Counted from the stretch's first letter, positions 27,180-55,953 are shown. The stretch is DNA of 64,000 bases from Candidatus Nanoarchaeia archaeon (GCA_028279655.1 JANQNH010000001.1:17484-81483), one strand, 5' to 3'. The notes: generated by a model from the sequence alone, not told the origin. Numbers and translations are program-made.

Positions 27180-27231
27180 CTTGTGCTGTTAAGTTAGCGT
27201 CACCTAGTCATCCTACTCTGAGCTTTAAGGT

Positions 27232-29780: not shown

Positions 29781-29782
29781 CT

Positions 29783-29944: not shown

Positions 29945-29967
29945 TACTATAAATATAAAAAGAAAAG

Positions 29968-30152: not shown

Positions 30153-30169
30153 TTTTTTTATTCTATTAG

Positions 30170-33100: not shown

Positions 33101-33514
33101 AATTCTATTCCTTCTTTAATTCCTGGTTATTTAAAAGCATTTACTTATTTACAAGGATCCTTGATCGAATTAAATGATGGATCACATGTCAATACAACAT
33201 GGGGAATGTGGGTTGAGATGTTGAATAATAACACAATAACAATAAATGGGACATTACCAAGAAATCCTTTGTTTATGATGAAACAAGGATGGAATTTAAT
33301 TGGTTATCCTAGCTTGATTCAAAAAGAAGTTAATAAGACTTTTAATGTAAGTCAAATAGAATCTGTTTTTATGTATAATGCTTCTAATACTTTGTGGAAA
33401 TCATACAATCCTTTGAATCCTCTCAATACTTTAGAAAGTATGAAATATGGCTATGGCTATTTAGTTAAAGTTAACGATACTATGAATTGGACTTTTAATG
33501 GAGAGTTTAAATGA
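30170..33514 (+). CDS. Giant surface protein with GLUG-motif repeats, Vps62/DUF946-like domain, TSP3-like repeat and two C-terminal GWNLI modules. True start possibly the Met at 30242.
   Basis: Signal anchor VVLYVFLWIVLCGFVSA. Repeated GGLIG/GGLVG. YAPVLYLHPDEEFFP...GGHEGDWEMIQI...VFVAEGGHASY. DNDSIADSIDNCINTSNPDQRDWDNDSVGDVCD. Confidence 0.7.
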   Translation: MTFTLQLKFSKDLYILEYSSIVVKMYWGAWKVVLYVFLWIVLCGFVSAVNVEIYDCDDLQNMNQNLSGSYELANDIDCSATRTWGEGKGFNPIGNLSERFTGYFDGKNHLITGLYMNRSESYIGLFGYVQHATIKNVGFIDVAIYADPSSGDDIGALIGRAEWVNVTNSYSSGLVKGRSNVGGLIGSLYDYEVRNSHSNATVIGSYMYVGGLVGSFTGSIIDSYAIGTVDSPYYAAGLIGKAGKGNSGNNLVYNCSAAGDVSRRYYNCSHHCGGLIGTSEEIMVEKSYATGDVNAKPDQAYMGGLIALASKTNISQSYAIGDVIGDSFVGGLVGSLQGSYANETLKDSYATGNIYTTGGNGLVGGLVGQLHNTNVINSYATGTVNARSGGVGGLIGTISNYSVQPVLINSYSTGYVGGDDVGGLIGRVDSNFSRITNVYYYGNVSDCCGLGSCIDCTREVSSDVFYGNEHDVYVLSPLWDFIHIWQNHSDDYPTLRLEKPLDVDSLLEKYAPVLYLHPDEEFFPKSIYSMLNESDLMLGNRSIDVSRPVSQDNLDGKENGSYLDMQDASPGFFPSVPNSSRFDRYENTVYGRVFEPDDEHIVLQYWFFYPYNHFRGGHEGDWEMIQIILNKTDEKPLTSTYSYHYDGRTYNWSDINKVDSTHPKVFVAEGGHASYKDPVVIWLPGYLLLESVSEENNSIVYYCNNTDTSQFVNNRSTQYRLNSILNATEWAHFNGRWGESKNKSSIYNGPSSPANLRYGNQAFRWNDPIGFANNPSPDSTSAATGSPVNLHAYDSQGRHVGLSSSGDIEAEIPGVYMYIPSDDEKEVIVILDSEDLTFEIEATDQGEFDFSLNTQNDGNYINLQYEDVQINKNTRATMQFTNTNPNFIMGIDVNGDGITDTTLSPNNVEISGNYSNNETDFDNDSIADSIDNCINTSNPDQRDWDNDSVGDVCDVESINITLVPGWNLISIPLIANNNSIPSLIPGYLKAFTYLQGSLIELNDGSHVNTTWGMWVEMLNNNTITINGTLPRNPLFMMKQGWNLIGYPSLIQKEVNKTFNVSQIESVFMYNASNTLWKSYNPLNPLNTLESMKYGYGYLVKVNDTMNWTFNGEFK

Positions 33515-33552
33515 AAAATATTAAATATGAGTGATTTTATTTATATGGTAAG

Positions 33553-33939
33553 GTGTTTATTGTGGGAAAGATAAAAGATTTATGGGATAAGTTGAAATAT
33601 TGGCATAGGGGGGCAATAATCATGTTTATTCCTGCTCTTATTATTTTTGTTCTTTATACAATTAATTCAATCAGGGTAGGTTTGAACTTAGGTTATACTT
33701 TTTTGGATATAATAAAAAAGGCAAATTTGTTTGCTTTATTGTTGCCAATTATAATTATTCCATTAATATATGGGTCTATTATGGGTATTGTTTACTCTTT
33801 TTTACTATCGAAAAAGAAAGATGACCCTCGGAAAAGAGTTTTAAGTATTTTGGCTTTTATAATAATATTACTGATTTCGTTATTTTTATTATTTTTTCTT
33901 ATCCTGTATGTTATAATAGGTATAGTCAAACCATTTTAA
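33553..33939 (+). CDS. Small multi-TM membrane protein
   Basis: Three or four hydrophobic helices. Confidence 0.4.
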   Translation: MFIVGKIKDLWDKLKYWHRGAIIMFIPALIIFVLYTINSIRVGLNLGYTFLDIIKKANLFALLLPIIIIPLIYGSIMGIVYSFLLSKKKDDPRKRVLSILAFIIILLISLFLLFFLILYVIIGIVKPF

Positions 33940-33961
33940 TTTTATTATACTAATCCCCTAC

Positions 33962-35089
33962 CTATCTCATGATTGCCTTATAGTGGTTCATAACATACAC
34001 AACACTTATCTTCTGTTCCCTTTTGGCAAGCTTGCCGAGCACATCGGTTGGATCATTTTTGAGATACTTCTTATTATCTTCAAGATCCCTTCCAATAGCC
34101 TCGCAGAACAAGGGGTGGGGTATTTCAATGCCTATAGTGCCACCATATCCAACTCTTCGCAGCATACCAAATAACTCCTTCATGTCCTTACCAACAGGGG
34201 TGTTTTCATTAATAACTCCCCTATTACCAGGACTATTCCATGGGCCCCATTCGCTAATATGCAGATGGGCAACAGTATTAGCTTTAATCGCTTCCTCAAG
34301 AATATTGAGATACTTATCGCCATAGAGTGCCCTTAAGTGAGCAGTATCGAGATGCATCTTAAAATACGGGCTTCCTGTTCTCTGGACATACTCCATATAC
34401 CTTCTAACATCCGAAAGCGCCCTTGATTCATCTGTTCTCAGAGCCTCTGGAGCACATACTACACCCATCTCTTTTGCCTTAGGAAGGATAATAGTACCTA
34501 GGCTCTCATTCCATCGCTCATACAGTCCACTCACATCCGGGTTAAAGTGCTCATCCACCATGCCAGGACCAACTACTGTTTTAACCTTGGCAGCACCTCC
34601 AAGCTCCAAGAAGTTATGTGCCCACTGCAGCCCCTTATTGCTCTCAGGATGCCTGCTTGATGCATAGTTTGCAGATAACATTCCTTCTTTAGCAGGACCT
34701 ACAAACGTTAGCAGTATTGGTTCCAGACCAAACCCCCTAACTATATCCCCTGCCTGCTCATACCATCTAACCTGTGCCTTATCAAAATTATCAAAATTAA
34801 GCCCCGAATTACCAGGCACAGTTGCTATCTCATACGAGCCTCCTTTTTCAACTCCAGATTCTAATGCAAGCTCAAGGTTTCTTTTTAATCCATCGTGATT
34901 TTTATCTGCCGGACCATTACCTAACCAAGTATTGATATCTACTATGCCAGGTGGAATTGGCGGTGTTCCTTTATGGTATATCACAGGACCTTGTCCATGT
35001 GCAGCTTCAGCACTAAAAAATTCTATTAATGCTGGCAAAGAAATAGTACCAGCTGCTAAACCTTTTATAACTTGCCTACGATTAATCAT
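33962..35089 (-). CDS. Xylose-isomerase-like TIM-barrel sugar-phosphate isomerase/epimerase with twin-arginine-like signal peptide. Locally GC-rich.
   Basis: N-terminus MINRRQVIKGLAAGTISLPA...AEAAHG. VAHLHISEW...PGNRGVINENTPVGKDMKELFGMLRRVGYGGTIGIEI. Confidence 0.6.
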   Translation of the reverse strand: MINRRQVIKGLAAGTISLPALIEFFSAEAAHGQGPVIYHKGTPPIPPGIVDINTWLGNGPADKNHDGLKRNLELALESGVEKGGSYEIATVPGNSGLNFDNFDKAQVRWYEQAGDIVRGFGLEPILLTFVGPAKEGMLSANYASSRHPESNKGLQWAHNFLELGGAAKVKTVVGPGMVDEHFNPDVSGLYERWNESLGTIILPKAKEMGVVCAPEALRTDESRALSDVRRYMEYVQRTGSPYFKMHLDTAHLRALYGDKYLNILEEAIKANTVAHLHISEWGPWNSPGNRGVINENTPVGKDMKELFGMLRRVGYGGTIGIEIPHPLFCEAIGRDLEDNKKYLKNDPTDVLGKLAKREQKISVVYVMNHYKAIMR

Positions 35090-43994: not shown

Positions 43995-44633
43995 ATGGCA
44001 GCAGACATAACAGGAGAGCTGAATTCTAGAGACCTTAAGGAATTTGGGAAGGACTTCGGAGAGGTAATGAGGGTATACTCTGGGATAAATAAAGAGTATG
44101 CTATGCCTGGGAAGGAGACTGACAGATATATCGATAGGTTTAGAGACGGGCTTAAAAAGTTTAACAAGAAGTATAAGAACCTGGTTATTAATCTTAGGGC
44201 AACAACAGAGAAGCTGAACCTGAGTATTTTTATAAAAGATGGGGGCGTTAAGGAGGTCTTTGCTAATGTTGCTTCTAAGCTAAACGGCCTTAAGGCTGTT
44301 GGGCTGAAGGACTTTGGAGAGGTTAAGGTTGAGGAACCAGAGTTCTCTGACGTTATCGAAAAAGTTAAGGATAGATTATTCATCTCCTATGTTGAGCAGT
44401 CAGAATCTTCGGTTTATCTGGAGCAGCGGAAGGATATGGTAGAGCTGCATGCTGATGAAGATATTGGGAATCCTAGTTCTCCTGGGTTTAAGATCCTTGG
44501 TTATTATGCAGTTAAGGATATGGGGAAATGTGACGTATATAGTATTTTGTCTGGGATAGGATTTATGGAGAGGCCTATCTTGGATAAGGTTAGAAGTATG
44601 CTGAAGAAGTTCAATCCGAGGATTGGAGAATGA
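43995..44633 (+). CDS. Hypothetical protein, ATGA-coupled to the downstream antiporter
   Basis: ORF only. Confidence 0.45.
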   Translation: MAADITGELNSRDLKEFGKDFGEVMRVYSGINKEYAMPGKETDRYIDRFRDGLKKFNKKYKNLVINLRATTEKLNLSIFIKDGGVKEVFANVASKLNGLKAVGLKDFGEVKVEEPEFSDVIEKVKDRLFISYVEQSESSVYLEQRKDMVELHADEDIGNPSSPGFKILGYYAVKDMGKCDVYSILSGIGFMERPILDKVRSMLKKFNPRIGE

Positions 44634-45652
44634 TCCCTTTATTTTTTGTTCTTATCGGAATAGCAGGACTTTATTTTGGGGCAGATTATGTTGTTGAGAG
44701 CGCGAAGAACATCGCTGAGAAGCTTAAAATCTCCCATACTCTTGTTGGGCTTACTATAATCTCCATAGGAACATCCATCCCTGAGATAATGACTAACTTA
44801 GTTAGTGGGCTTAAGATTAGGCAGGGGATAGATGCTTCTGGTATCGCTGTTGGGACTAATATCGGTTCTGACGTTACGCAGATCACTTTTATCCTAGGAC
44901 TTACTGCCTTGTTTGGCACGATGTATGCTTCAAAGAAGCTGTTTAGGAGGGATGGTCCCATGGTTTTGTTTTCCATAATAGCTGTCTTTATTGCAGGGAT
45001 TACAGGCTTTGTAGTTGGGTTTTGGGAGGGCCTGGTAATGTTGCTCATATATTTTGCATATCTTTATTTTACCAGCGAGCACGAAAGGGTGATTGGAAAG
45101 ATTTATGATAAATTGACTGACTGGAGCAAGATTGATAAGCGAAGATACATAAGGAGTGTTCTGGAAAGGGCCTTCAAAAGGGGGTATATTGCCGATGCTG
45201 TACTTATGACTTTGGGGATGATCATATTGGTTTTTGCTTCTGACCTGGTGGTTGGGAGTGCCCTGGAGCTTACAGAGGTCTGGGGAGTTGCACAGAGTTT
45301 TGTTGGGGTGATGGTGGTTGGTGTTGGCACTGGATTGCCTGAGCTTTCAACTGCTATCAGGGCAGCATTCAAGAATGCAGGCGGTATCTCTCTAGGAACT
45401 CTGATCGGAAGCAATATCACAGATCCCATGTTCGCTCTTCCTGTAGGGGCTATGGCTGCAGGAGTTGGACTGAACTTTGACAGGAATCTTCTTTTGTTTG
45501 ATCTCCCCTTTTGGTTTATTGTAACGATCATAGCTCTGACATTCTTTGCAGTTAATAAGAAAGTAGGAAAGGAGAATAAGGTTCATGGTTCGGTGTTGAT
45601 CATGCTATATATACTATTTGTGTTCCTTAAGATCAGATTCTTCCTGCATTAA
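44630..45652 (+). CDS. CaCA-family Na+/Ca2+ exchanger (YrbG-like)
   Basis: Two alpha-repeats: IGTSIPEIMTNL and VGVGTGLPELSTAI. Confidence 0.8.
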   Translation: MIPLFFVLIGIAGLYFGADYVVESAKNIAEKLKISHTLVGLTIISIGTSIPEIMTNLVSGLKIRQGIDASGIAVGTNIGSDVTQITFILGLTALFGTMYASKKLFRRDGPMVLFSIIAVFIAGITGFVVGFWEGLVMLLIYFAYLYFTSEHERVIGKIYDKLTDWSKIDKRRYIRSVLERAFKRGYIADAVLMTLGMIILVFASDLVVGSALELTEVWGVAQSFVGVMVVGVGTGLPELSTAIRAAFKNAGGISLGTLIGSNITDPMFALPVGAMAAGVGLNFDRNLLLFDLPFWFIVTIIALTFFAVNKKVGKENKVHGSVLIMLYILFVFLKIRFFLH

Positions 45653-46946: not shown

Positions 46947-47687
46947 ATGGCTAAAGGAAATGCTAAAGAAAAAGCAGCACCCCATTTAGTAAATGCTGAG
47001 GAAGAGGTAGGCTCTACTCCAGTAAATGCTAAGGGGGAAGGAGCACGTATTCTAATTGTAGATAATGAAAGTAAATATATGGCGGACTTGAAGACGACTG
47101 TTGAAGCTCATGCTGAAGCAAATGCTAATGGAAAAGTCAAGGTTGATAAAGTTCATGTTAAGGATGCTATAGGTAAACTAAAAGATGAGGCGCCTTATGA
47201 TGCGGTTATATTATCTGGAAGTTTTAAAAGAAGATATGATAATGAAGATGTCCAGAATGTTATTAAATTTGTTGATGATTACAATAAAGGCAAGAATGCT
47301 CCTGACAAAAAAATTCCTGATCAAAAGATAGATCTATATGGTGCTTGTCTGGGGCATCAGGCTTTGATCCATTATCATGGTAAGGGACAAGCTGAATTTG
47401 TTGAACTAGGGAAATATATCAAAGGGGATAAGGACATAACCCTTAAAGATAAGAGTATGGTAAAATCCCATAAACATCATAAGCACGCTTTTAAAAGTGC
47501 CCCTAATCTAGAGATAATAGCAACTAGTTCAGTAGAGGATTCTGGAGGTACATCTCATGATATAGTTGAAGCTGTAGAACATAAAGATATGCCATACTCT
47601 TCTTCTCAGGGTCATGCCTCAAGACCCGGACATGCTCAAGATATGCTGTATAAGATGTTGCTTAAGGTTTACCAGAAAGCAGCTTAA
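46947..47687 (+). CDS. Class-I glutamine amidotransferase-like (GATase1 / peptidase C26) protein
   Basis: Nucleophile elbow LYGACLGHQAL (G-x-C-x-G-x-Q). His/Glu near C-terminus. Confidence 0.55.
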   Translation: MAKGNAKEKAAPHLVNAEEEVGSTPVNAKGEGARILIVDNESKYMADLKTTVEAHAEANANGKVKVDKVHVKDAIGKLKDEAPYDAVILSGSFKRRYDNEDVQNVIKFVDDYNKGKNAPDKKIPDQKIDLYGACLGHQALIHYHGKGQAEFVELGKYIKGDKDITLKDKSMVKSHKHHKHAFKSAPNLEIIATSSVEDSGGTSHDIVEAVEHKDMPYSSSQGHASRPGHAQDMLYKMLLKVYQKAA

Positions 47688-49318
47688 ACCTCTTTTACCA
47701 TCTTAACTGTAAAATGCCTGAATCCCATCTTGTCGTATAGTTTTATTGCAGCTTTGTTGTCCATGTGTATCTCTAATGATACATGAGGCACCTTATTTGA
47801 CTTAAGCCATTCTAATGCGCTCTTTACAAGATTCTCTGCTACTCCTTTTTTCCTGTGTTCCTTGTCAACAAATAGGTTGCTGATGTGGCCTTTTCCTTCT
47901 TTGTGATACCTTGAGATCCTCAGAGGGGTAAAGAATTTTGCAAGGATAGCCCCCACTATCTTGTTTCTATCTTCTGCTACAAACAGGATCCTGTCTGGTT
48001 TTGTAAGATCAAACTGAAGGTATTCCCTGTAGTAATGTTTGCTTTTGGTAATCGGTTTAAGGGTATTTGAGTATTTCAGCTCCTCTTTTTTTGACATAAG
48101 CCTTAGCTTGAAGAGCTCGTCAAAGTCATCTATTGTCGCTTTCCTTATGGCTATGTTATCTCCATAGTTATCTATAATGTCTTTTATGAAGTATCTGCTT
48201 AGGTTGTATCTTCTCACTCTTGGGAATCCTGGAAATGCATTGATCTCTATGAACTCTGCCTTCTTCTTGTCAGCACAGAGCATCATGTCAACCCCTCCAA
48301 AGTTCAGGCCTAATGCTTTTATCGCCTTAATGGCGCTTTGTTTGGCAAATTCCAGCTGTTTTTTTGGAAGGGTTTTTTCAAAGCTTAGTTTCTCTCCTAT
48401 GGCGCCCTGGGATATGTTTGTTGTAACTGCTTTTTCGTCATTACTCCTTCCATAGGTGTAAAGGACTTTGTCCTTAAAGACATACATCCTAAGGTCAAAC
48501 TTTCTTCCTTTTATCAGCAACGGGTCAATGGCATCTTCTATTATGATGTCCTTCTTTAGGATCTCACTCAGGAATCTGGTCTTGTTTGTTATGTTAATAA
48601 AGGTCCAGCCATAGTCTGATTTTCTGCTTAGGATCTTTCCATTTCTGAACCTGAAATTCGTCATCCACCTGCCTTTCTCAAGATAGGTTATGCCTTTTCC
48701 CATGGAACCATATCTGACCTTAATGAAAAGTTTGCGTCCATTTTCCAGCAGCTTTAAGATATCCTTTACCTTTCTTGTATTGTATGTTTTTGGAATCAGG
48801 ACCCCTGCTTTTGCAACCTTCTTCTTGGTCATCTCCTTATCCCTGTCGGTTGCCAGATTCTTTGGGTGATTGATATAGGTTATCTTATTGTTTTTGTAAA
48901 AATTCTTCAGCTTACTATCTATCTCCTTCCAGAACTTAATGAATTTGGTGTAGAAGCTCTTGTTTCCATAGATGCCCTTGTATTTCTTTGGTTCAATATA
49001 TTTATCCCAATACTCAAAAGGGAAGCACAGGAATATTATGATCTCTTTTGTCTTTATCTCTGGGAGTTTTTGGTCTATTACAGACCAGTAATTTGTGGCT
49101 TTTACCTGGATGTTGCTTCCTCTGAAGAACTTTCTCTGCTTGTAGACCTTCTTGAAGGTGTCGAAGTCCTTCCAGTCTCCTATTGCCAATAGTGTTTTCA
49201 TATTTTTCTCAAAATTATTGATACTTATAAAGTTTACTGTGTTAGTCCTTCTGATTGATATGTAAAAAGAAAAACCACCACCAATGGGCTCAAATACGGT
49301 CGTGCTTCGCACGCCCAA
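47684..49318 (-). CDS. YheC/YheD(TTL)-type ATP-grasp ligase fused to a C-terminal GNAT acetyltransferase. Real start may be the internal Met (MKTLLAIGDW).
   Basis: LFIKVRYGSMGKGITYL and RKFDLRMYVFKDKVLYTYGRSNDEKAVTTNISQGAIGE (YheCD signature). GNAT motif A FVDKEHRKKGVAENLV. Confidence 0.6.
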   Translation of the reverse strand: MGVRSTTVFEPIGGGFSFYISIRRTNTVNFISINNFEKNMKTLLAIGDWKDFDTFKKVYKQRKFFRGSNIQVKATNYWSVIDQKLPEIKTKEIIIFLCFPFEYWDKYIEPKKYKGIYGNKSFYTKFIKFWKEIDSKLKNFYKNNKITYINHPKNLATDRDKEMTKKKVAKAGVLIPKTYNTRKVKDILKLLENGRKLFIKVRYGSMGKGITYLEKGRWMTNFRFRNGKILSRKSDYGWTFINITNKTRFLSEILKKDIIIEDAIDPLLIKGRKFDLRMYVFKDKVLYTYGRSNDEKAVTTNISQGAIGEKLSFEKTLPKKQLEFAKQSAIKAIKALGLNFGGVDMMLCADKKKAEFIEINAFPGFPRVRRYNLSRYFIKDIIDNYGDNIAIRKATIDDFDELFKLRLMSKKEELKYSNTLKPITKSKHYYREYLQFDLTKPDRILFVAEDRNKIVGAILAKFFTPLRISRYHKEGKGHISNLFVDKEHRKKGVAENLVKSALEWLKSNKVPHVSLEIHMDNKAAIKLYDKMGFRHFTVKMVKEV

Positions 49319-49456
49319 CCCACAAAGGAAAAAACCATACGTTGTATGCTTTTTCCCTCTACACTCGTGTTTTCACCTATGGTTGTTTTTATGAAATATA
49401 TTTTTTATACTACAAAGTTTTAAATAATAGTGATTTTTGATTGTTAATGGGAGAAA

Positions 49457-50473
49457 ATGAGAATAGCAATAACTTGCAGCATAAAACCTGAAAATGTTCG
49501 TGAAGAGGAGAAGGAGAAGTATGCTGAATTTGATTCTAAGGAAACCATTGATGATCTTTCAGAAGCTATCAAATCAAATGCGCATGAAGTTGAGATTATC
49601 GATGTAAGAGAAGATATAAAGGATGTCCTGATGTCTAAGAAGGACAATATTGATCTTGTTTTTAATGTTGCAGAGGGAATTGAAGGGGAGGAGAGAGAAG
49701 CACTGGTTCCCGGAGTATGCGAGGAATTAGGCATTCCTTTTTCCGGCGCTGGTTTCAAGACCTCTGTGATTGTGCTAAATAAGGCAAAGGCAAAGGATGT
49801 CCTGATGAAGAATGATATCAAAACTCCCAGATATAAGGTTTTTGAGACTGGAAATGAAGCATTTGATCTGAGATTTCCCATACTCATCAAGCCTTTGATC
49901 GAAGGAAGCTCTAGGGGTGTATTTAATGAGAACCTAGTTAGTAATGTTGAGGACCTTAGGAGAATTGTAAGAAAAATTATCGAGGAATATAAACAGCCAG
50001 CCATAGGGGAGGAATTTCTTAGCGGCAGGGAATTTACTGTTTCTGTTATTGGCTATAAGAACCCAATAGTGCTTCCGATTGTTGAGATAAAGTTTGATCA
50101 TCTTCCACCTGATATCAACCCCATGGATAGTTATGAAGCAAAGTGGATATATGACAGTCCTGAATATAATGAGAAGCATAATGTTGATCCTGTCCAATGT
50201 CCTGCTATTCTTGATGATAGGCTGAGACAGGAGATAGAGGATATAGTTTTGCAGACCTATAAGGTATTAGATTGCAAGGATTGGGCAAGGATTGATGTTA
50301 GACTGGATAAGGAAGGAGTTCCAAATATCTTGGAGGTTAATACCCCTCCTGGTTTTATGAAGGATCCTAAAGAAAATTCAAGGTTGCCAAAGGCTGCCTA
50401 TGCTAATGGATGGAGTTATGAGAAGCTTATCGGAGAGGTTTTGAAGAGCGCTATTGGGAGGTGGAATCTGTGA
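49457..50473 (+). CDS. D-alanine-D-alanine-ligase-like ATP-grasp enzyme, paralogue 1
   Basis: Ddl N-domain and ATP-grasp. AEGIEGEEREALVPGVCEELGIPFSGAG. ILIKPLIEGSSRGV. EVNTPPG. Confidence 0.7.
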   Translation: MRIAITCSIKPENVREEEKEKYAEFDSKETIDDLSEAIKSNAHEVEIIDVREDIKDVLMSKKDNIDLVFNVAEGIEGEEREALVPGVCEELGIPFSGAGFKTSVIVLNKAKAKDVLMKNDIKTPRYKVFETGNEAFDLRFPILIKPLIEGSSRGVFNENLVSNVEDLRRIVRKIIEEYKQPAIGEEFLSGREFTVSVIGYKNPIVLPIVEIKFDHLPPDINPMDSYEAKWIYDSPEYNEKHNVDPVQCPAILDDRLRQEIEDIVLQTYKVLDCKDWARIDVRLDKEGVPNILEVNTPPGFMKDPKENSRLPKAAYANGWSYEKLIGEVLKSAIGRWNL

Positions 50474-51468
50474 AAATTGCTGTGATATATACCAAGAGAG
50501 AAGAGATGGCAGAATCATACCATGAGGATTGGGAAGGCAGGGATACTAATGATGATGCTGAGTCTGTTATGAAGGCTTTAAAGGAACTAGGGCATGAGGT
50601 TAAGGTATATTATGTTGATCTTGACCTGTTCGAGAGCCTTAAGAGGGATAAGAAAGACATAGATATGGTTTTTAACATGTGTGATGACGGTTTTTATTCT
50701 GATCCTGAGTTAGAGCCACACGTGCCTGCCATGCTGGATATTCTGGAGATACCCTATACCGGGGGAGATTATCTAACATTGGCTTTGACCTTAAGGAAGG
50801 CTATGGTAAAGAAGATACTTATCTATCATGATCTTCCTACGCCAAGGTTTAAACTCTTTGAGACCGGAGATGAATCTTTTGATATGGGCTTTCCATTGAT
50901 TGTTAAGCCTGCTCTGGAGGACGCTTCTATCGGGATTAAAGATGAGTCTGTTGTATATGATGAAGAGAAATTGAGAGAAAGGGTCAAGTACGTTATCAAG
51001 GAGTATGAGCAGCCTGCGCTTGTTGAGGAGTTTATCGATGGAAGGGAGTTTAATGTTGGAGTGATAGGTGATAATGAGATACTTCCACTTTCTGAGATAA
51101 CCTTTGATGGTCTGCCTGCCGATAAGCCCAAGATTGTGAATTATGATGCTAAGTGGAAGGAGGATTCTATCGATTATAAGGAAACCAGAAGGAGCTGTCC
51201 TGCAAAGGTTGATGAGATATTAGGAAATAAGCTTAGGGAACTTGCCTTGAAAGCGGGTTCTTTGTTTGGATGCAGGGATTACTTTAGGGTAGATTTTAGG
51301 GTTAGGGGGGATGAACCTTTTATCCTTGAGGTTAATCAGAGCCCGGATATCTCAGAGGATGCAGGTCTTTTTGCTATGGCCCAGGCAAAAGGTTATAGCT
51401 ATAAGGATCTGATCGACAAGATTATCACCAATGTTATGAAAAGAGAAAAGGATGATAGTCCAGAATAA
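50461..51468 (+). CDS. D-alanine-D-alanine-ligase-like ATP-grasp enzyme, paralogue 2
   Basis: Same architecture as paralogue 1. LIVKPALEDASIGI. LEVNQSPD. 13-nt overlap with paralogue 1. Confidence 0.7.
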   Translation: MESVKIAVIYTKREEMAESYHEDWEGRDTNDDAESVMKALKELGHEVKVYYVDLDLFESLKRDKKDIDMVFNMCDDGFYSDPELEPHVPAMLDILEIPYTGGDYLTLALTLRKAMVKKILIYHDLPTPRFKLFETGDESFDMGFPLIVKPALEDASIGIKDESVVYDEEKLRERVKYVIKEYEQPALVEEFIDGREFNVGVIGDNEILPLSEITFDGLPADKPKIVNYDAKWKEDSIDYKETRRSCPAKVDEILGNKLRELALKAGSLFGCRDYFRVDFRVRGDEPFILEVNQSPDISEDAGLFAMAQAKGYSYKDLIDKIITNVMKREKDDSPE

Positions 51469-52786
51469 GCTTGAGAAAAGAGGTTTTTCTGTAAATCTAT
51501 TTAAAGATGCAAGTATAGAATACCAGGAGGATGTCTGGGAGAATATTTCTGAGGATTATAAGAAGGCGATTATGGATAACTTAGTCTATCTGAAGCTATC
51601 CCCTTATTCTATGTTCCAGGAAATGCATTTTGATTTCCCTAAGCCTTTTCTTTCTGAATTGGGGGACAAGGGGGTTATCGGGGATATTCCAAGAATCGCA
51701 TATGAAGATAAGGTTTCTGCTAAAGAGATGATTGAGAGGTTTAGGAATAAACATGTTGATTTTTGTGAAGGTAGCTCTGCATCCATGAGTGGTATAGAGA
51801 CTGAAGATACCCCCTTGATCGGGATTTCTTTTGGGAAGGATAGTCTTTTGTCTTATGCAGTTGCTAAGGAATTAGGACTAGATCCTGAGCTTGTTATGGT
51901 ACAGGATTTCTGGGATAAGGAGGCGGACTTTAAGTTTGACATAATAGACAGATTTGAGGATGAGTTTGATGAGGAGATATACATAGTTTATGATTACATG
52001 GATGATGTATCAGCCTATAAGCGGATAAATAAGCTTGGTTCAGAGGGGGTTGTTGGTGCTAATGCGATAAATTCCTATATTGCCATGCTTCTTCCATTGG
52101 CAGTGAGGCATAGGGCAGATACGCTTGTCTTTGGGAATGAACAAAATTTTAATGATTACTTTTTAAATGAAGAGGGATTTAAGGTTTATCCTTCCTATGA
52201 ACAGTCGAGCGACTGGATGGAGGAACAGAACAAGGCCTTGGATGAGTTTACAGGAGGAAATGTTAAGGTCACTAGTTTTGTTGAGCCCCTGTATAATATT
52301 GCTGAGGTGAAGGTATTGTTCAGCAGGTATCAGTCTATAGCAAGATATCAGATGTCCTGTGATCTTTCATACTCTAAAGGGGGGAGAGGGATGTGGTGCT
52401 ATAACTGTCCTATGTGCGGCAAGGCCTTCCTATACCTAAAGGCCATAGGTGTTGATCCCAAGGTCATTGGTTTCAATAAAAACTTTTTTGACAAGGAATT
52501 TGAAAGACACTATCCTTTGTTCACCCCGCCTACCCGCATCTATGAGAAGCCTGCTGCTGTAAGGGATGAGCAGCTTTTTGGTTTTTACCTTGCTTTTAAG
52601 TCGGATTGCAAGGGTTATCTTATTGACCAGTTTGCGGATAGGTTTTTGGATGAAGCTAAAGAACGCGAGGATGAGTTATTCAATAAATTCTTCAAGGTGC
52701 ATGATTCTGTGTCTATGGATGGGAGGATCAAGGCAGGGATCAATTCTATCTATAGAGAGGAGCTGGATAAGGAGAGCTTAGGATGA
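51452..52786 (+). CDS. PP-loop (adenine-nucleotide alpha-hydrolase superfamily) ATP-pyrophosphatase-like protein with CxxC...CxxC zinc ribbon. Candidate amidoligase.
   Basis: LIGISFGKDSLLSYAVAKELG (variant of SGGxDS). MWCYNCPMCG. 17-nt overlap with the upstream gene. Confidence 0.5.
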   Translation: MIVQNKLEKRGFSVNLFKDASIEYQEDVWENISEDYKKAIMDNLVYLKLSPYSMFQEMHFDFPKPFLSELGDKGVIGDIPRIAYEDKVSAKEMIERFRNKHVDFCEGSSASMSGIETEDTPLIGISFGKDSLLSYAVAKELGLDPELVMVQDFWDKEADFKFDIIDRFEDEFDEEIYIVYDYMDDVSAYKRINKLGSEGVVGANAINSYIAMLLPLAVRHRADTLVFGNEQNFNDYFLNEEGFKVYPSYEQSSDWMEEQNKALDEFTGGNVKVTSFVEPLYNIAEVKVLFSRYQSIARYQMSCDLSYSKGGRGMWCYNCPMCGKAFLYLKAIGVDPKVIGFNKNFFDKEFERHYPLFTPPTRIYEKPAAVRDEQLFGFYLAFKSDCKGYLIDQFADRFLDEAKEREDELFNKFFKVHDSVSMDGRIKAGINSIYREELDKESLG

Positions 52787-54153
52787 GATGGGAAGATGCT
52801 ATCGGTCCATTAAAGGAAGGATGGAATGAAGATATTGATGAGGATGACGGGAATTACTATGAAGATATAGTCAACAGCGTCTTAAAAAAGAAGGATTTGT
52901 TGCTTGAGAGCGCTTCTAGATTTGGCACCCCCCAATATATCCTTGATGAGGATGTCCTTAGGGAGAAGGCGTCTGGTTTTATGCAGAACTTCAGGAATTT
53001 TATACCTAACTCCAGGTTTTTCTATGCTTTCAAGTCTAACGATCTTCCTTACATATGTGGTTTTTTGAGGGATCTTGGGTTTAATGCTGATGTTGCTGGT
53101 TTGTTTGAGCTGCAACTGGCTTTGAAACTGAATTTTAAGCGTATAATCTTTACAGGGCCTGCGAAGAGTACGGAAGAGCTTTTGTTAGCTATCGAAAATA
53201 GAAACAGGGTGGTAATAAATGTGGACAACAAGGATGAGCTTGATAGGGTGATAGGTTTGGTGGATGATGGCAGAGTTAGGATCAGCGTTAGAGTCAATCC
53301 GGATAGTTCGGTGATGAAGACCTGGAGCAAGTTTGGGGTTGACTTCGATGAATTGAAGGAGGTTATCTCAAGGGCCAGGACTAGCAGTAAGGTCTCACTG
53401 GTCGGTCTACATTTTCATTCTTCATGGAACGATACTCCAGAACGTTACTGTAAGAATATTAAACTGATCGGAGAATTCCTGAAGGAAGACCTATCTCAGT
53501 TTGAGTTCCTTGATATCGGTGGAGGGATATATCCAGAGGACCAGGCAACCCTGACAAAGTTCAGCCATAACTATGTCTTAAGAGAGGTTGTTTCAGAGGT
53601 ACAGGAAGAGCATCTTGATTTTGACTTAAGTGAGTTTGTTGTTGATGATGTCGATTCTCTGGAGGTGTTTGGGAAAGAGATTTCGAGTGCGTTAGAGAAA
53701 TATATATTTCCCTTCAATAAAGATATGGATATCTATCTTGAGCCTGGAAGGTATGTCTCTAACAATTCAACCCATATTCTGCTGAAGGTACTCTGTGAAA
53801 AAGGAGAGAACGTGATTGTTGATGGCGGCATGAACCTTATAGGAAGCCTGGATTTTTCACAATATCTTTTTGCACCTATTGTCAACCTTTCTAATCCTTC
53901 CTTGGAATTAAGAAAGAAAACAATCTATGGGAGTCTATGTAAAGCGGATGACCTTTGGGGTTATTCATTTTTTGGAGAGGGTTGCAAGAAAGATGATGTT
54001 GTGATCGTATTGATGCAGGGAAGCTATACATTCTCAAGGGCGTGGAGATTCATTAAAGAGACTGCCCCATACGTTGTTATATCCAACGGTAAATTGAGAT
54101 TAGCAAAAGAGAAAGAAAAATTTTCTGATAGGTATTCTGGCTGCAAGTTCTGA
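52783..54153 (+). CDS. Fold-III PLP-dependent decarboxylase (Orn/DAP/Arg decarboxylase family)
   Basis: FGTPQYILDED. PLP-Lys FYAFKSN. LDIGGGI. YLEPGRY. C-terminal YGSLCKADD. Confidence 0.75.
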   Translation: MRWEDAIGPLKEGWNEDIDEDDGNYYEDIVNSVLKKKDLLLESASRFGTPQYILDEDVLREKASGFMQNFRNFIPNSRFFYAFKSNDLPYICGFLRDLGFNADVAGLFELQLALKLNFKRIIFTGPAKSTEELLLAIENRNRVVINVDNKDELDRVIGLVDDGRVRISVRVNPDSSVMKTWSKFGVDFDELKEVISRARTSSKVSLVGLHFHSSWNDTPERYCKNIKLIGEFLKEDLSQFEFLDIGGGIYPEDQATLTKFSHNYVLREVVSEVQEEHLDFDLSEFVVDDVDSLEVFGKEISSALEKYIFPFNKDMDIYLEPGRYVSNNSTHILLKVLCEKGENVIVDGGMNLIGSLDFSQYLFAPIVNLSNPSLELRKKTIYGSLCKADDLWGYSFFGEGCKKDDVVIVLMQGSYTFSRAWRFIKETAPYVVISNGKLRLAKEKEKFSDRYSGCKF

Positions 54154-54508
54154 AAAAGATTTTTTCTGAGAATTAAAGAATAATTTCTAGATTATAAAAT
54201 TGTAATTATTTTTCTTAAAAAAATAAAAATTTTGTAAAATATTAAAAAACTTTTCTCGTTTTTTTCGACGAGAAATTAAAAAAATAAAAACTTTTTTTAA
54301 AAAAATAAAAAAAAATAAATTTTTTTTTATCCATTTTGTCGACGGTAAATTCAAAAAAGAATAAGCTTTAAATACTACTAATTTCAGTAAAAAATATTAA
54401 AAAAATTAATTTTTTCCAAAAAAAGCTGGTGAAATAAGAGATGATTACCAAAAATTCATTGTTTCTTCTCCATTTTATCCATGATTATAAACTGAGAGAA
54501 GAATTTTT
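54154..54508. promoter_or_regulatory. About 355-bp spacer of more than 85% A+T, low complexity, with AAAAATAAAAA iterations and two GTCGAC-containing motifs, upstream of the aminomutase
   Basis: tttttcgacgag at 54262. ttttgtcgacggtaaa at 54334-54349. Confidence 0.35.
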
Positions 54509-55630
54509 TTGAGGTCAACAATGCCAGGACAACAAGAAGAAACATTGATAAAGAAGAAATATGCGAAAGAGATTGAACAGGTTGAATTATGGGAAGAATT
54601 GTTGAGAAAAAGCATTGTTGATGAAGGGCAGCTTGATGCAATCTGCAAAGGAAATATCGATAAAGAGAAGCTGAAGGCTGTAATCAAGAAATACCCGATG
54701 AGGATAAACCCCTATTATCTAAGTCTTGTGAAAAAGAAGGATGATGCAATCTGGAAGCAATGCATCCCTGATGTCCGTGAGCTTGATGATCCTAAGGGTT
54801 TTGAGGACCCCCTTTGCGAAGAAAGGGACAGTCCGGTCCCTGGCTTGACACATAGATATCCAGACAGGGTCCTTCTGCTGGTATGTAACCAATGTGCAAT
54901 GTATTGCAGGTTCTGTACAAGGAAAAGAAAGGTAGGTGATCCTTTCAAACGGATTACAAGGGCCCAAATATTAAGGGGTATCGAATATATAAAAGGACAT
55001 CCTGAGGTAAGGGACGTGCTTTTGTCAGGAGGAGACCCTTTCCTGCTTTCTGATTCTTATCTTGAATGGATACTGAAGGAACTAAGAAGCATACCTCACG
55101 TTGAGATTATTCGTATTGGAACACGAGTACCATGTGCTCTTCCGCATAGGGTAACTCCTGAGTTGTGCAACATGTTAAAGAAGTACCATCCTTTATATGT
55201 AAATATCCATTTTGCTCATCCGGATGAGATAACTGAACTAAGCGAGAGTGCATGCAATATGCTGTCTGATGCAGGTATCCTGTTGAGTAGCCAGACTGTG
55301 TTGCTTAGGGGTGTTAATGATGATCCTAAGGTCATGAAGGACCTTATGCAGAAGCTCCTGAAGATAAGGGTGCGACCATATTATATCTATCAGGCAGATA
55401 TGACTATGGGGATTAACCATTTCAGAACAAAGGTTGAGAAAGGTATAGAGATCATTGAGAAGATCCAGGGATGGACCTCTGGATTGTGCGTCCCTCATTT
55501 TGTTATCGACAGTCCCGGCGGAGGAGGGAAGATACCAATCCTGCCTAATTTTATTGTTTCCAGAGATGATAAGAAGATAGTCCTAAGGAATTATTCCGGG
55601 AAGACATATACTTATGAAGAGCATTGTTGA
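54509..55630 (+). CDS. kamA: KamA-family radical-SAM aminomutase (lysine 2,3-aminomutase-like)
   Basis: CNQCAMYCRFCTRKRK (CxxxCxxC in the KamA context). LLSGGDPF. PLP-Lys region. C-terminal Cys cluster. Confidence 0.8.
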   Translation: MRSTMPGQQEETLIKKKYAKEIEQVELWEELLRKSIVDEGQLDAICKGNIDKEKLKAVIKKYPMRINPYYLSLVKKKDDAIWKQCIPDVRELDDPKGFEDPLCEERDSPVPGLTHRYPDRVLLLVCNQCAMYCRFCTRKRKVGDPFKRITRAQILRGIEYIKGHPEVRDVLLSGGDPFLLSDSYLEWILKELRSIPHVEIIRIGTRVPCALPHRVTPELCNMLKKYHPLYVNIHFAHPDEITELSESACNMLSDAGILLSSQTVLLRGVNDDPKVMKDLMQKLLKIRVRPYYIYQADMTMGINHFRTKVEKGIEIIEKIQGWTSGLCVPHFVIDSPGGGGKIPILPNFIVSRDDKKIVLRNYSGKTYTYEEHC

Positions 55631-55665: not shown

Positions 55666-55953
55666 TTGTTCTTGATGCAAAGGTTTATATGCTTTTCGCT
55701 AGCTCCAATTTTTATGAGAGCATGTATTGATTGCGATATAACCTTCAAGGTCCAGTATTGTTGTGGATCAGATCCAGATACAAAGAAATCAGTAGATCTT
55801 GTACTAGCGGATGGTCTAGTTGTAAGTGCGTGTCCTAGTTTGAACAGGGACGGTGGCTGCAATCAATACGGCTCAAGACCAGATCCTTGCAAAGAATATA
55901 TAGATTGTCCGAATCTTGAAGGAGTGGATCTTTTTGATATACTATATGCGTAA
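55666..55953 (+). CDS. Small Cys-rich protein (8 Cys) with hydrophobic N-terminus
   Basis: CIDCD...CCGSDPD...CPSLNRDGGCNQ...CKEYIDCPN. Confidence 0.35.
   Translation: MFLMQRFICFSLAPIFMRACIDCDITFKVQYCCGSDPDTKKSVDLVLADGLVVSACPSLNRDGGCNQYGSRPDPCKEYIDCPNLEGVDLFDILYA

What the first reader, a model, noticed from the sequence alone, without database searches (positions are those of the whole stretch)
49457..54153. Tightly coupled four-gene core operon: two Ddl-like ligase paralogues, a PP-loop ATPase and a PLP decarboxylase
Consecutive genes overlap by 13, 17 and 4 nt, which implies translational coupling and fixed stoichiometry. Two Ddl paralogues in tandem suggest two sequential amino-acid additions, as in dipeptide or pseudo-peptide assembly, followed by amidation and decarboxylation. 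The PP-loop protein carries an atypical SFGKDS P-loop and an extra N-terminal domain of about 120 aa.
Basis: seen in the sequence. Interest (0 to 1): 0.65.

Follow-up and report, generated by a model that had tools for sequence, protein, structure and literature searches.

The report
Beta-lysine peptide operon with MurL-like enzyme
A small-genome (DPANN) archaeon carries a tightly packed operon of two altered D-Ala-D-Ala-ligase-type enzymes, a distant relative of the bacterial ATP-driven peptide epimerase MurL and a decarboxylase, next to a beta-lysine-forming enzyme. Together they most likely build an unusual short peptide-like molecule whose identity is unknown.

Summary
Four co-directional genes (49457-54153) overlap at every junction. 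The 13-nt overlap is more likely a 4-nt GTGA overlap, because the public gene call starts the second ligase at GTG 50470.

Both Ddl paralogues (39% identical) keep the ATP, Mg and catalytic residues but have lost the D-Ala-recognition residues, so they are not cell-wall ligases. The "PP-loop ATPase" has no Pfam domain. It has a QueC-type core (SFGKDS loop, four invariant Cys) with extra N- and C-terminal domains. [quoted passage not shown] The decarboxylase keeps the catalytic residues of its fold but lacks LysA's substrate residues.

In 80 related loci, the MurL-like gene lies near a Ddl-like ligase in 70. These loci come from DPANN, CPR bacteria, Bathyarchaeia and Omnitrophota. Close DPANN relatives keep ligase-ligase-MurL-like-decarboxylase-lysine 2,3-aminomutase, and two loci fuse the aminomutase to the ligase.

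Best reading: ribosome-independent assembly of a beta-lysine-containing pseudopeptide, with adenylation of the terminal carboxylate (epimerisation favoured, amidation not excluded) and decarboxylative tailoring. The product is unknown and I found no published description. This is a new variant of a known logic, of moderate-to-high interest.

The parts
49419..49426 (+). TATA-box-like TTTAAATA, candidate archaeal promoter of the operon
   Evidence: TTTAWATA occurs 40 times in the window against 14.7 +/- 4 expected, mostly 25-40 nt upstream of start codons. This copy is 38 nt before the ATG at 49457, and there is no + strand copy between 49457 and 54153. Its function as a promoter is inferred, not shown.
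49457..50473 (+). Ddl-like ATP-grasp ligase, type A (338 aa)
   Evidence: Dala_Dala_lig_C E 6.6e-34. The best NCBIfam Ddl model scores 168.5 bits, below its 243 cut-off. K97, K144, E180, E187, K215, R255, D257, E270 and N272 (E. coli DdlB numbering) are kept. E15->I, H63->E, Y216->W and L282->R. The same signature is seen in 13 DPANN sequences. This type is fused to KamA in L038 and L085.
50470..51468 (+). Ddl-like ATP-grasp ligase, type B (332 aa from GTG 50470; the maximal ORF starts at 50461)
   Evidence: Dala_Dala_lig_C E 7.1e-32. It is 39% identical to the first ligase. Catalytic residues are kept. The substrate pocket is made acidic: H63->D, G149->D, S150->A, G276->D, H280->D, S281->A, L282->G. 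The start at 50470 follows the public gene call.
51452..52786 (+). MurL-like PP-loop (QueC-fold) adenylating enzyme (444 aa)
   Evidence: It has no Pfam hit. The only NCBIfam hit is MurL NF041275, E 5.8e-11 and 41.5 bits against a cut-off of 700. hhalign against X. sacchari MurL gives probability 95.8%, E 8e-9, 289 columns. Shared invariant residues are G128, K129, S131, E230, S302-C303, W315-C316, C319 and C322. The AlphaFold model has pLDDT 92.8. The best Foldseek PDB matches are QatC, QueC, YcfA and Cap9.
52783..54153 (+). Fold-type III PLP decarboxylase (456 aa), not a LysA
   Evidence: Orn_Arg_deC_N E 5.2e-29. It scores 152 bits against lysA TIGR01048, whose cut-off is 297.9. The PLP Lys84, HxH, GGG, EPGR, catalytic Cys and Tyr are conserved in 22 orthologues. 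The LysA distal-carboxylate Arg/Tyr (DLxRPxxY) is absent, and Glu after the catalytic Cys is replaced by Lys here and is variable elsewhere. The start overlaps the upstream stop as ATGA.
54521..55630 (+). Lysine 2,3-aminomutase (KamA/AblA type, 369 aa), functionally linked and probably on its own promoter
   Evidence: It scores 501.7 bits against TIGR03820 (cut-off 525.4) and 420 bits against C. subterminale LAM, PDB 2A5H. The residues aligned with chain positions 293 and 330 are both Asp; their role as the lysine epsilon-ammonium binders is from my recollection of the LAM literature. The public call starts at ATG 54521. It is syntenic in L006-L011, L014 and L016, and fused to the type-A ligase in L038 and L085. 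A 355-nt AT-rich spacer with T-runs and a TTTAAATA at 54367 precedes it.
47684..49318 (-). ATP-grasp (RimK/YheCD type) fused to a GNAT acetyltransferase, divergently transcribed; probable accessory ligase/acetylase
   Evidence: Acetyltransf_1 E 1.1e-20, ATPgrasp_YheCD E 8.3e-17, RimK E 1.5e-9. There are weak hits to MptN and to the N-acetylglutaminylglutamine synthetase model. The same fusion occurs upstream of the cluster in L011. GNAT genes accompany the MurL-like/ligase pair in 32 Bathyarchaeia-type loci and in Omnitrophota. Membership of the pathway is inferred.

Best explanation
This is a ribosome-independent assembly line for a short, unusual peptide-like small molecule built around beta-lysine.

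Proposed steps:
1. Lysine 2,3-aminomutase converts L-lysine to beta-lysine.
2. The type-A Ddl-like ATP-grasp ligase uses beta-lysine to make a first amide bond through an acyl-phosphate.
3. The type-B paralogue, whose pocket has become acidic, adds a second, probably basic, building block.
4. The MurL-like enzyme (QueC-fold, PP-loop) adenylates the free terminal carboxylate of the ligase product. By analogy with MurL, its only characterised sequence relative, the most likely outcome is one-way L-to-D epimerisation of the C-terminal residue followed by hydrolysis of the adenylate.
5. The fold-III PLP decarboxylase then removes the alpha-carboxylate of a residue that still has a free alpha-amino group (a side-chain-linked residue, as with BtrK and FslC). 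Alternatively it makes the amine that one ligase uses.
6. The divergent ATP-grasp-GNAT fusion may add a further residue and an N-acetyl group.

The product would be a protease-resistant, cationic or zwitterionic compound, for example a compatible solute or a polyamine-like molecule.

Shown: the gene anatomy, residue conservation, homologies, synteny and fusions. Inferred: every substrate, the order of steps, and epimerisation versus another fate of the adenylate.
For: Anatomy and coupling:
- Four overlapping genes with Shine-Dalgarno-like sites at the junctions and a single TATA-like motif upstream.

Ligases:
- Catalytic ATP, Mg and acyl-phosphate residues are kept in both, and D-Ala specificity residues are lost. 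In an alignment of 80 partner ligases from related loci plus the two window ligases, none has the E. coli signature H63/Y216/L282.

Link to beta-lysine:
- KamA aligns Asp with both LAM positions 293 and 330.
- Close relatives keep the order ligase-ligase-MurL-like-decarboxylase-KamA (L006, L009, L011).
- L038 encodes one ORF with Radical_SAM, LAM_C and Dala_Dala_lig_C domains, and L085 has a similar fusion.

MurL-like enzyme:
- MurL is the only NCBIfam hit.
- hhalign probability is 95.8% over 289 columns, spanning part of the N-domain, the PP-loop, the Cys4 motif and the C-domain.
- The Lys in the PP-loop, E230 and the four Cys are shared.
- MurL is ATP/Mg-dependent, forms AMP, and acts on the C-terminal residue just added by a ligase encoded next to it (PMC5808125, PMC8788868).
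- The same ligase-plus-MurL-like adjacency holds in 70 of 80 loci, and in 50 of the 56 loci with at least 3 kb of flank on both sides.

Decarboxylase:
- The catalytic set is conserved and the LysA substrate residues are absent.
- PDB relatives include BtrK and FslC, which decarboxylate side-chain-linked Glu and Orn made by partner ligases.

Supporting hint:
- In L085 a Peptidase_S58 gene (E 8.6e-103) overlaps the end of the MurL-like gene. From my own knowledge, S58 is the DmpA/BapA family, which acts on beta-peptides and D-Ala amides.
Against: - No substrate or product is known for any member of this family.
- Similarity to MurL is distant: about 18% identity, and 41.5 bits against a cut-off of 700. 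Function may have diverged.
- Other QueC-fold enzymes use the adenylate for amidation (QueC) or for conjugation to an amine (Cap9).
- If beta-lysine were the C-terminal residue, epimerisation would make no chemical sense, because C2 carries no stereocentre.
- Epimerising a residue and then decarboxylating that same residue would be pointless, so the two enzymes must act on different centres. That is an added assumption.
- CPR and Bathyarchaeia versions lack KamA, so beta-lysine is not general to the family.
- The decarboxylase is present in only 20 of 80 loci and KamA in only 13 of 80.
Confidence: 0.4

Rival explanations
1. The PP-loop enzyme amidates the terminal carboxylate of the ligase product with ammonia, as QueC or asparagine-synthetase-type enzymes do, and as AsnO does in N-acetylglutaminylglutamine amide synthesis. 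Ammonia might come from the GATase-like protein at 46947-47687. The product would be a peptide amide, then decarboxylated.
For: - The core fold is QueC-type. From my own knowledge, QueC adenylates a carboxylate and amidates it.
- A class-I GATase-like gene (PF00117, E 2.8e-8) with a GACLGHQ motif lies 1.8 kb upstream.
- The upstream ATP-grasp-GNAT fusion weakly matches the N-acetylglutaminylglutamine synthetase model (57.5 bits).
Against: - No QueC or asparagine-synthetase model matches the protein. Only MurL does.
- The GATase-like gene has no counterpart in any of the 80 related loci.
- The whole three-domain architecture is collinear with MurL, not with the 220-aa QueC.
Confidence: 0.2
2. 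The MurL-like enzyme is itself a third bond-forming enzyme. It adenylates a carboxylate for attack by an amine of the same molecule (giving a lactam or ring) or of another molecule or protein, as the QueC-like Cap9 and QatC do.
For: - The best structural matches are QatC, QueC, YcfA and Cap9.
- With a beta-amino acid at the C-terminus, cyclisation or transfer is chemically more sensible than epimerisation (inference).
- Five loci carry two MurL-like paralogues in tandem, suggesting two different carboxylate-activating steps.
Against: - TM-scores are low (0.3-0.4 on the query).
- There are no PADLOC hits, so it is not a known Qat or CBASS component.
- No conserved acceptor-protein gene was found in the neighbourhood clustering.
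- Sequence similarity points to MurL.
Confidence: 0.15
3. This is an ordinary cell-wall or amino-acid metabolism cluster: D-Ala-D-Ala (or pseudomurein-type) ligases plus a diaminopimelate decarboxylase (LysA) that supplies lysine.
For: - The top family names for the ligases are D-alanine--D-alanine ligase, and for the decarboxylase lysA.
- In Xanthomonas sacchari, murL-murD lies just downstream of an aspartokinase/DAP-decarboxylase gene.
Against: - All scores are below the curated cut-offs: 168.5 and 154.3 against 243, and 152 against 297.9.
- D-Ala-binding residues are lost.
- The LysA distal-carboxylate Arg/Tyr and the Glu after the catalytic Cys are absent.
- No Mur ligases, glycosyltransferases or other wall genes are found in the annotated ORFs of at least 150 aa in the 64-kb window.
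- The host is a DPANN-type archaeon.
Confidence: 0.04

Closest known systems
MurD2/MurL alternative D-Glu route in peptidoglycan synthesis (Xanthomonas; Feng et al. 2017, reviewed in PMC5808125 and PMC8788868)
   Same: - A ligase adds an L-amino acid, and the adjacent gene encodes an ATP/Mg-dependent, AMP-forming enzyme that acts on the new C-terminal residue.
- The window protein is about the same length as MurL (444 vs 451 aa) and collinear with it.
- It shares the Lys-containing PP-loop, E230 and the SC...WCxxCxxC motif.
   Different: - Identity is only about 18%, and the score is far below the family cut-off.
- The PP-loop is SFGKDS, not GGGKDS.
- The partner is an ATP-grasp (Ddl-type) ligase, not a Mur-type ligase.
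- There is no UDP-MurNAc context, and the hosts are archaea and CPR bacteria.
- A decarboxylase and an aminomutase are added.
- Epimerase activity is untested.
D-alanine--D-alanine ligase (Ddl) and the stand-alone L-amino-acid ligases of the ATP-grasp family (BacD/YwfE, TabS, RizA)
   Same: - The Dala_Dala_lig_C ATP-grasp fold is present.
- All ATP, Mg and acyl-phosphate residues are conserved.
- The chemistry is dipeptide-forming.
   Different: The D-Ala1 and D-Ala2 recognition residues are replaced (E15, H63, Y216, L282; also S150, G276 and S281 in type B). There are two divergent specificity types in tandem.
N-epsilon-acetyl-beta-lysine synthesis in methanogens (AblA lysine 2,3-aminomutase + AblB GNAT)
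   Same: An AblA-type aminomutase scores just below the equivalog cut-off (501.7 against 525.4), and a GNAT acetyltransferase lies in the same neighbourhood.
   Different: The GNAT is fused to an ATP-grasp ligase and transcribed divergently. Three ligase modules, a MurL-like enzyme and a decarboxylase are present, so the product must be more elaborate than acetyl-beta-lysine.
Ligase plus fold-III decarboxylase pairs: BtrJ/BtrK (butirosin), FslA/FslC (rhizoferrin), MfnA/MfnD (methanofuran)
   Same: - A carboxylate-amine ligase works with a PLP decarboxylase.
- BtrK and FslC are among the closest solved relatives of the window decarboxylase (69.8 and 77.5 bits).
- Both act on side-chain-linked amino acids.
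   Different: - There is no acyl carrier protein and no citrate-type synthetase here.
- MfnA is a different decarboxylase fold (my own knowledge).
- The specificity residues differ.
QueC and QueC-like enzymes (QatC, Cap9, YcfA)
   Same: The closest solved folds for the central domain. All have a PP-loop plus a C-terminal Cys4 metal site.
   Different: - No QueC sequence model matches.
- The window protein has about 117 extra N-terminal and about 120 extra C-terminal residues.
- There is no deazaguanine pathway or defence context, and no PADLOC hits.

Membership tests
D-alanine--D-alanine ligase (Ddl, EC 6.3.2.4) | ATP-grasp fold with Dala_Dala_lig_C domain and conserved ATP/Mg/acyl-phosphate residues (K97, K144, E180, E187, K215, R255, D257, E270, N272 of E. 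coli DdlB) | tested here: met
   Pfam E 6.6e-34 and 7.1e-32. All listed residues are kept in both paralogues. The E. coli sequence was verified as identical to PDB 2DLN.
D-alanine--D-alanine ligase (Ddl, EC 6.3.2.4) | Score above the curated NCBIfam Ddl cut-offs | tested here: not met
   The best model, NF002378, scores 168.5 and 154.3 bits against a cut-off of 243.
D-alanine--D-alanine ligase (Ddl, EC 6.3.2.4) | D-Ala recognition residues E15, S150, Y216 (triad), H63, S281, L282 | tested here: not met
   Type A: E15->I, H63->E, Y216->W, L282->R. Type B: E15->K, H63->D, S150->A, Y216->W, G276->D, S281->A, L282->G. None of the 80 partner ligases from related loci, nor either window ligase, has H63/Y216/L282.
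[quoted passage not shown] | Score above the equivalog cut-off | tested here: not met
   41.5 bits, E 5.8e-11, against a cut-off of 700.
[quoted passage not shown] | Same domain architecture and core motifs (PP-loop with Lys, Cys4 motif) | tested here: met
   hhalign probability 95.8%, 289 columns, residues 71-388 against 98-403 of X. sacchari MurL. G128, K129, S131, E230, S302, C303, W315, C316, C319 and C322 are invariant across both.
[quoted passage not shown] | Encoded next to a MurD2-type Mur ligase in a peptidoglycan-making bacterium | tested here: not met
   The partners are ATP-grasp Ddl-like ligases in 70 of 80 loci. No Mur ligase family appeared among the largest neighbour clusters I examined. 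The host is archaeal.
[quoted passage not shown] | ATP-dependent, AMP-forming L-to-D epimerisation of a C-terminal residue | not testable with these tools
   This needs enzyme assays with chiral analysis.
QueC (7-cyano-7-deazaguanine synthase) | Match to QueC sequence models; about 220 aa single-domain protein | tested here: not met
   No QueC model hit in Pfam or NCBIfam at E <= 0.01. The protein is 444 aa with extra N- and C-terminal domains.
QueC (7-cyano-7-deazaguanine synthase) | PP-loop nucleotide-binding fold with C-terminal Cys4 metal site | tested here: met
   Foldseek matches to QueC 2pg3 and 3bl5, QatC 9y02 and Cap9 9nto (probability 1.00, TM on target 0.55-0.66). The four Cys are invariant.
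Diaminopimelate decarboxylase LysA (TIGR01048) | Fold-III PLP decarboxylase catalytic set (PLP Lys, His, GGG, EPGR, Cys, Tyr) | tested here: met
   Conserved in the window protein and in 21 orthologues.
Diaminopimelate decarboxylase LysA (TIGR01048) | Score above cut-off, and the distal-carboxylate/amine binding residues (DLxRPxxY Arg/Tyr; Glu after the catalytic Cys) | tested here: not met
   152 bits against 297.9. The motif reads NLIGSLDF instead of DLIRPSIY, and CK instead of CE. The roles of these residues in LysA are from my own knowledge of the E. coli and M. tuberculosis structures.
Lysine 2,3-aminomutase (KamA/AblA, TIGR03820) | Radical-SAM CxxxCxxC, LAM_C domain, and the two Asp that bind the lysine epsilon-ammonium (D293, D330 of C. 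subterminale LAM) | tested here: met
   Radical_SAM and LAM_C hits. 420 bits to PDB 2A5H, with Asp aligned at both chain positions 293 and 330. The role of those two Asp is from my own recollection of the LAM literature. The TIGR03820 score of 501.7 is just under the cut-off of 525.4.

The most novel reading that the evidence does not exclude
The ATP-grasp ligase plus MurL-like enzyme pair may be a general two-enzyme module. It would install D-residues (or otherwise edit the C-terminus) in small non-ribosomal peptides without racemases or NRPS machinery. The module would be spread across DPANN archaea, CPR bacteria, Bathyarchaeia and Omnitrophota. The window would show its most elaborate form: a beta-lysine-based, decarboxylated peptide whose three enzyme types echo the bacterial murein stem-peptide toolkit (Ddl, MurL, LysA) in a wall-less archaeon.
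Probability: 0.3. Interest if true: 0.75.

Novelty: new variant of a known kind. Interest (0 to 1): 0.6.

Why it matters
MurL is so far a one-off enzyme known only from an alternative peptidoglycan route. Here a distant sister family, with no Pfam domain, is paired almost always with Ddl-type ATP-grasp ligases. The family has 307 clusters at 50% identity among 1.84 billion representatives. The organisms are uncultured and often have very reduced genomes, so a conserved multi-enzyme pathway is unlikely to be dispensable.

If the family is an epimerase, it gives a natural 'ligate L, then flip to D' route to protease-resistant peptides. That is the same logic recently engineered with unrelated enzymes for penicillin precursors (PMC13338154). 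If it is not an epimerase, it extends the chemistry of QueC-fold enzymes.

Either way, the operon gives a defined, expressible set of five or six genes for finding an unknown metabolite of DPANN archaea and CPR bacteria.

Tried and rejected
- **PDB sequence search with the MurL-like protein:** it gave only zinc-finger noise around the CxxC motif, so no MurL-family structure is solved.
- **RNA searches:** Rfam and tRNA scans of the window found nothing.
- **Promoter and terminator scan:** the sigma-70 promoter and intrinsic-terminator scan was at chance level and does not apply to archaea.
- **Defence-system library:** PADLOC gave no hit for any of the five proteins, so I rejected a Qat/CBASS-type reading.
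- **Literature:** searches on MurL, ATP-grasp, aminomutase, DPANN and peptidoglycan found no description of this cluster.
- **Other window genes tested as conserved partners:** the GATase-like protein and the 95-aa Cys-rich ORF (55666-55953) had no counterparts in the 80 loci. The AlaDH-like protein was found only in L011. The 212-aa ORF and the CaCA transporter are simply syntenic upstream neighbours.
- **LysA reading of the decarboxylase:** rejected on the missing substrate residues.
- **Classical Ddl reading:** rejected on the missing D-Ala residues.
- **Horizontal transfer from composition:** cluster GC is 0.38-0.41 against a window range of 0.31-0.44, which is not distinctive.

Full report
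**Observation.** The four ORFs are present exactly as described: 49457-50473 (338 aa), 50461-51468 (335 aa from GTG), 51452-52786 (444 aa) and 52783-54153 (456 aa), all on the + strand. Reading the junctions directly gave three results.
- The stop of gene 1 is TGA at 50471-50473. The maximal start of gene 2 is GTG 50461 (13-nt overlap). A second GTG at 50470 gives a GTGA 4-nt overlap, with GGGAGGTGG just upstream.
- Gene 3 starts at ATG 51452, 17 nt before the TAA of gene 2.
- Gene 4 starts in an ATGA overlap, with AGGAGAG 7-13 nt upstream.

The exact-sequence look-up found the 332-aa product from GTG 50470 in the public collection but not the 335-aa one. The first overlap is therefore probably 4 nt.

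**Transcription unit.** The archaeal TATA-like word TTTAWATA occurs 40 times in the window against 14.7 +/- 4 in shuffles, mostly 25-40 nt upstream of start codons. One copy lies at 49419, 38 nt before the first ATG. There is none on the + strand inside 49457-54153, and the next is at 54367. After gene 4 comes a 355-nt, extremely AT-rich spacer with many T-runs. This fits one promoter for the four genes and a separate one for the next gene, but it is inference, not transcript data. The bacterial promoter and terminator scan was at chance level.

**Host.** The window encodes TYW3, a threonyl-tRNA synthetase with the archaea-specific editing domain, TrmB, NFACT, SRP54 and large surface proteins. 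The closest homologues of the cluster proteins come from Nanoarchaeota/Woesearchaeota-type MAGs. No Mur ligases, glycosyltransferases or other wall-synthesis genes were found in the ORFs I annotated.

**The two ligases.** Both match Dala_Dala_lig_C (E 6.6e-34 and 7.1e-32). They stay below every curated Ddl cut-off, with best scores of 168.5 and 154.3 bits against 243. They are 39% identical to each other. I aligned them with E. coli DdlB, whose sequence I first verified as identical to PDB 2DLN.
- Both keep K97, K144, E180, E187, K215, R255, D257, E270 and N272.
- Type A (gene 1) has E15->I, H63->E, Y216->W and L282->R.
- Type B (gene 2) has E15->K, H63->D, G149->D, S150->A, Y216->W, G276->D, H280->D, S281->A and L282->G, which makes the pocket acidic.
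- In an alignment of 80 partner ligases from related loci plus the two window ligases, none has the H63/Y216/L282 signature. Four or five recurrent signature classes appear instead.

These are active-looking ligases with new specificities, not cell-wall Ddl.

**The PP-loop protein.** It has no Pfam hit. Its only NCBIfam hit is MurL_Xanthomonadales (E 5.8e-11, 41.5 bits, cut-off 700), aligned collinearly over residues 82-349. Homologues conserve S126-F127-G128-K129-D130-S131, a GNE motif (E230), YPSY(D/E)QS, and C303, C316, C319 and C322. The AlphaFold model is confident (pLDDT 92.8). It shows an N-terminal domain of about 117 residues, a central nucleotide-binding domain and a C-terminal helical domain. 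Foldseek against the PDB finds QatC, QueC, YcfA and Cap9 as best matches, with low query coverage. The core is therefore QueC-type.

A tblastn of the plasmid collection gave a single weak hit, which fell on an annotated murL of Xanthomonas sacchari next to murD. With that sequence, hhalign gives probability 95.8%, E 8e-9 and 289 aligned columns (residues 71-388 against 98-403). The PP-loop Lys, E230 and the SC...WCxxCxxC motif are invariant across both. MurL is described as an ATP/Mg-dependent, AMP-forming, one-way epimerase of the C-terminal L-Glu just added by MurD2, with 'no known conserved domains' (PMC5808125, PMC8788868). The window protein is thus a distant sister of MurL with the same architecture. 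It is not an equivalog.

**The decarboxylase.** It is a fold-type III PLP enzyme (Orn_Arg_deC_N, E 5.2e-29). Its best family score is lysA at 152 bits, below the 297.9 cut-off. The closest solved structures are Aquifex LysA (101.7 bits), FslC N-citrylornithine decarboxylase (77.5), BtrK gamma-glutamyl-ACP decarboxylase (69.8) and D-Orn/D-Lys decarboxylase (61.8). The PLP Lys, HxH, GGG, EPGR, catalytic Cys and Tyr are conserved in 22 orthologues. The LysA DLxRPxxY segment reads NLIGSLDF, and the residue after the Cys is Lys here and variable elsewhere (K/T/D/M/A/L). It is not a diaminopimelate decarboxylase. Because PLP decarboxylation needs a free alpha-amino group, the substrate is either a free amino acid or a residue linked through its side chain, as for BtrK and FslC. 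This last point is inference.

**Neighbours.**
- Downstream (ATG 54521) lies a lysine 2,3-aminomutase. It scores 501.7 bits against AblA (cut-off 525.4) and 420 bits against C. subterminale LAM, with Asp aligned at both positions 293 and 330. From my recollection of the LAM literature, those two Asp bind the lysine epsilon-ammonium.
- Upstream and divergent is a RimK/YheCD-type ATP-grasp fused to a GNAT acetyltransferase.
- Further upstream are an AlaDH-family protein and a class-I GATase-like protein.

**Comparative genomics.** Homologues of the MurL-like protein occur in DPANN archaea, CPR/Patescibacteria, Omnitrophota, Bathyarchaeia, Thorarchaeota and Aenigmatarchaeota. The family is small: 307 clusters at E <= 1e-3 and 109 at <= 1e-30, among 1.84 billion representatives. 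In 80 loci from species-representative genomes:
- A Ddl-like ligase lies within 8 kb in 70, and in 50 of the 56 loci with at least 3 kb of flank on both sides. It is usually adjacent and co-directional.
- The decarboxylase is present in 20 loci (DPANN and CPR only) and KamA in 13.
- A GNAT is present in 32 and a ThrC-like PLP enzyme in 36 (both the Bathyarchaeia type).
- Five loci have tandem MurL-like paralogues.
- Close relatives L006, L009 and L011 keep the order ligase A-ligase B-MurL-like-decarboxylase-KamA. L007, L010, L014 and L015 insert another ATP-grasp of about 415 aa before the decarboxylase.
- CPR bacteria have the MurL-like gene, an 810-aa protein, a 445-aa ATP-grasp and the decarboxylase. 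The N-terminal half of the 810-aa protein resembles the 415-aa ligase and its C-terminal half resembles type B.
- In L038, one 700-aa ORF carries Radical_SAM, LAM_C and Dala_Dala_lig_C domains. L085 has a similar KamA-ligase fusion. These fusions tie the aminomutase product to the type-A ligase.
- In L085, a Peptidase_S58 gene (E 8.6e-103) overlaps the end of the MurL-like gene.

**Interpretation.** The constant core is a ligase followed by a MurL-like enzyme. The aminomutase, decarboxylase, acetyltransferase and extra ligases are variable additions, as in families of small-molecule biosynthetic clusters. For the window, the best-supported scheme is:
1. KamA makes beta-lysine.
2. The type-A ligase couples beta-lysine.
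3. The type-B ligase adds a second, probably basic, unit.
4. The MurL-like enzyme adenylates the terminal carboxylate.
5. The decarboxylase tailors a residue with a free alpha-amino group, or supplies an amine.
6. The ATP-grasp-GNAT fusion may extend and acetylate the product.

I favour epimerisation for step 4, because MurL is the only sequence relative and shares the whole architecture and the 'next to its ligase' logic. The similarity is remote, however, and QueC-fold enzymes also amidate or conjugate. Epimerisation would be meaningless on a C-terminal beta-amino acid. Epimerising and then decarboxylating the same centre would also be wasteful. The amidation and ligase/cyclase readings therefore remain serious rivals.

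A cell-wall or LysA reading is very unlikely. I found no paper describing this cluster. All three enzyme types have their nearest characterised relatives in murein stem-peptide metabolism (Ddl, MurL, LysA). That is a striking resemblance, but it is not evidence of a wall polymer.

**Verdict.** It is not supported on 'amidation', and it is incomplete because it missed KamA, the GNAT fusion and the true conserved core. The feature is a new variant of the ligase-plus-MurL logic, placed in a new enzymatic and phylogenetic setting, with an unknown product. Interest 0.6.

Noticed in passing
window 54154-54520: A 355-nt spacer between the decarboxylase and KamA is almost pure A/T. It has long A- and T-runs, imperfect direct repeats (for example TTAAAAAAATAAAAA at 54215 and 54276) and a small hairpin, CTCGT(7T)CGACGAG. 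No Rfam match. It may be a terminator/promoter region or a regulatory element.
   Followed up: partly
whole window: TTTAWATA is 2.7-fold enriched (40 against 14.7 +/- 4) and usually sits 25-40 nt upstream of start codons (for example 8875/8905, 38092/38122, 43394/43427, 46917/46947). This suggests very short leaders throughout this genome.
   Followed up: partly
L086 (Xanthomonas sacchari NZ_CP010410.1) 356-6170: The authentic murL-murD pair is preceded by a bifunctional aspartate kinase/diaminopimelate decarboxylase and a small hypothetical gene, all co-directional and overlapping. A fold-III decarboxylase therefore also sits beside MurL in Xanthomonas. This may be coincidence or a deeper link.
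   Followed up: no
L085 4645-5802: A Peptidase_S58 gene (E 8.6e-103) overlaps the 3' end of the MurL-like gene in a KamA-ligase-MurL-like operon. From my own knowledge, S58 is the DmpA/BapA family of D-Ala-amidases and beta-peptidyl aminopeptidases.
   Followed up: partly
L001 9382-10761, L014 3946-5310, L015 1512-2966, L039 7451-8920, L046 8497-9888: A second, divergent MurL-like paralogue lies in tandem with the first. Its PP-loop is altered to FTFGKES in L001 (SFGKES in L014).
   Followed up: no
L039, L044-L084 (mostly Bathyarchaeia): The Bathyarchaeia-type cluster is a divergent ThrC-like PLP enzyme (PRK06381, 351 bits), then MurL-like, one Ddl-like ligase and a GNAT. It has no KamA and no decarboxylase. 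The amino-acid building block may be made by the ThrC-like enzyme.
   Followed up: partly
window 40-6600 and 30170-33514: Very large predicted surface proteins carry Dockerin, thrombospondin-3, lamin-tail and Big_9 domains (462 and 1713 aa). A 1114-aa GLUG-motif protein is also present. These are typical of episymbiotic DPANN cell-surface equipment.
   Followed up: no
window 24000-34000, esp. 28761-29666: A low-GC stretch (0.31-0.33 against about 0.40 elsewhere) contains an IS240-type DDE transposase on the - strand. It may be a mobile or recently acquired segment.
   Followed up: no
window 55666-55953: A 95-aa Cys-rich ORF lies directly after KamA. It has no Pfam or NCBIfam hit and no counterpart in the 80 related loci. 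It may not be a gene.
   Followed up: partly
window 43995-45652: The 212-aa ORF of unknown function and the CaCA-type exchanger upstream are syntenic with the cluster in L006, L007 and L011. In the window, the AlaDH-like, GATase-like and ATP-grasp-GNAT genes lie between them and the operon.
   Followed up: partly
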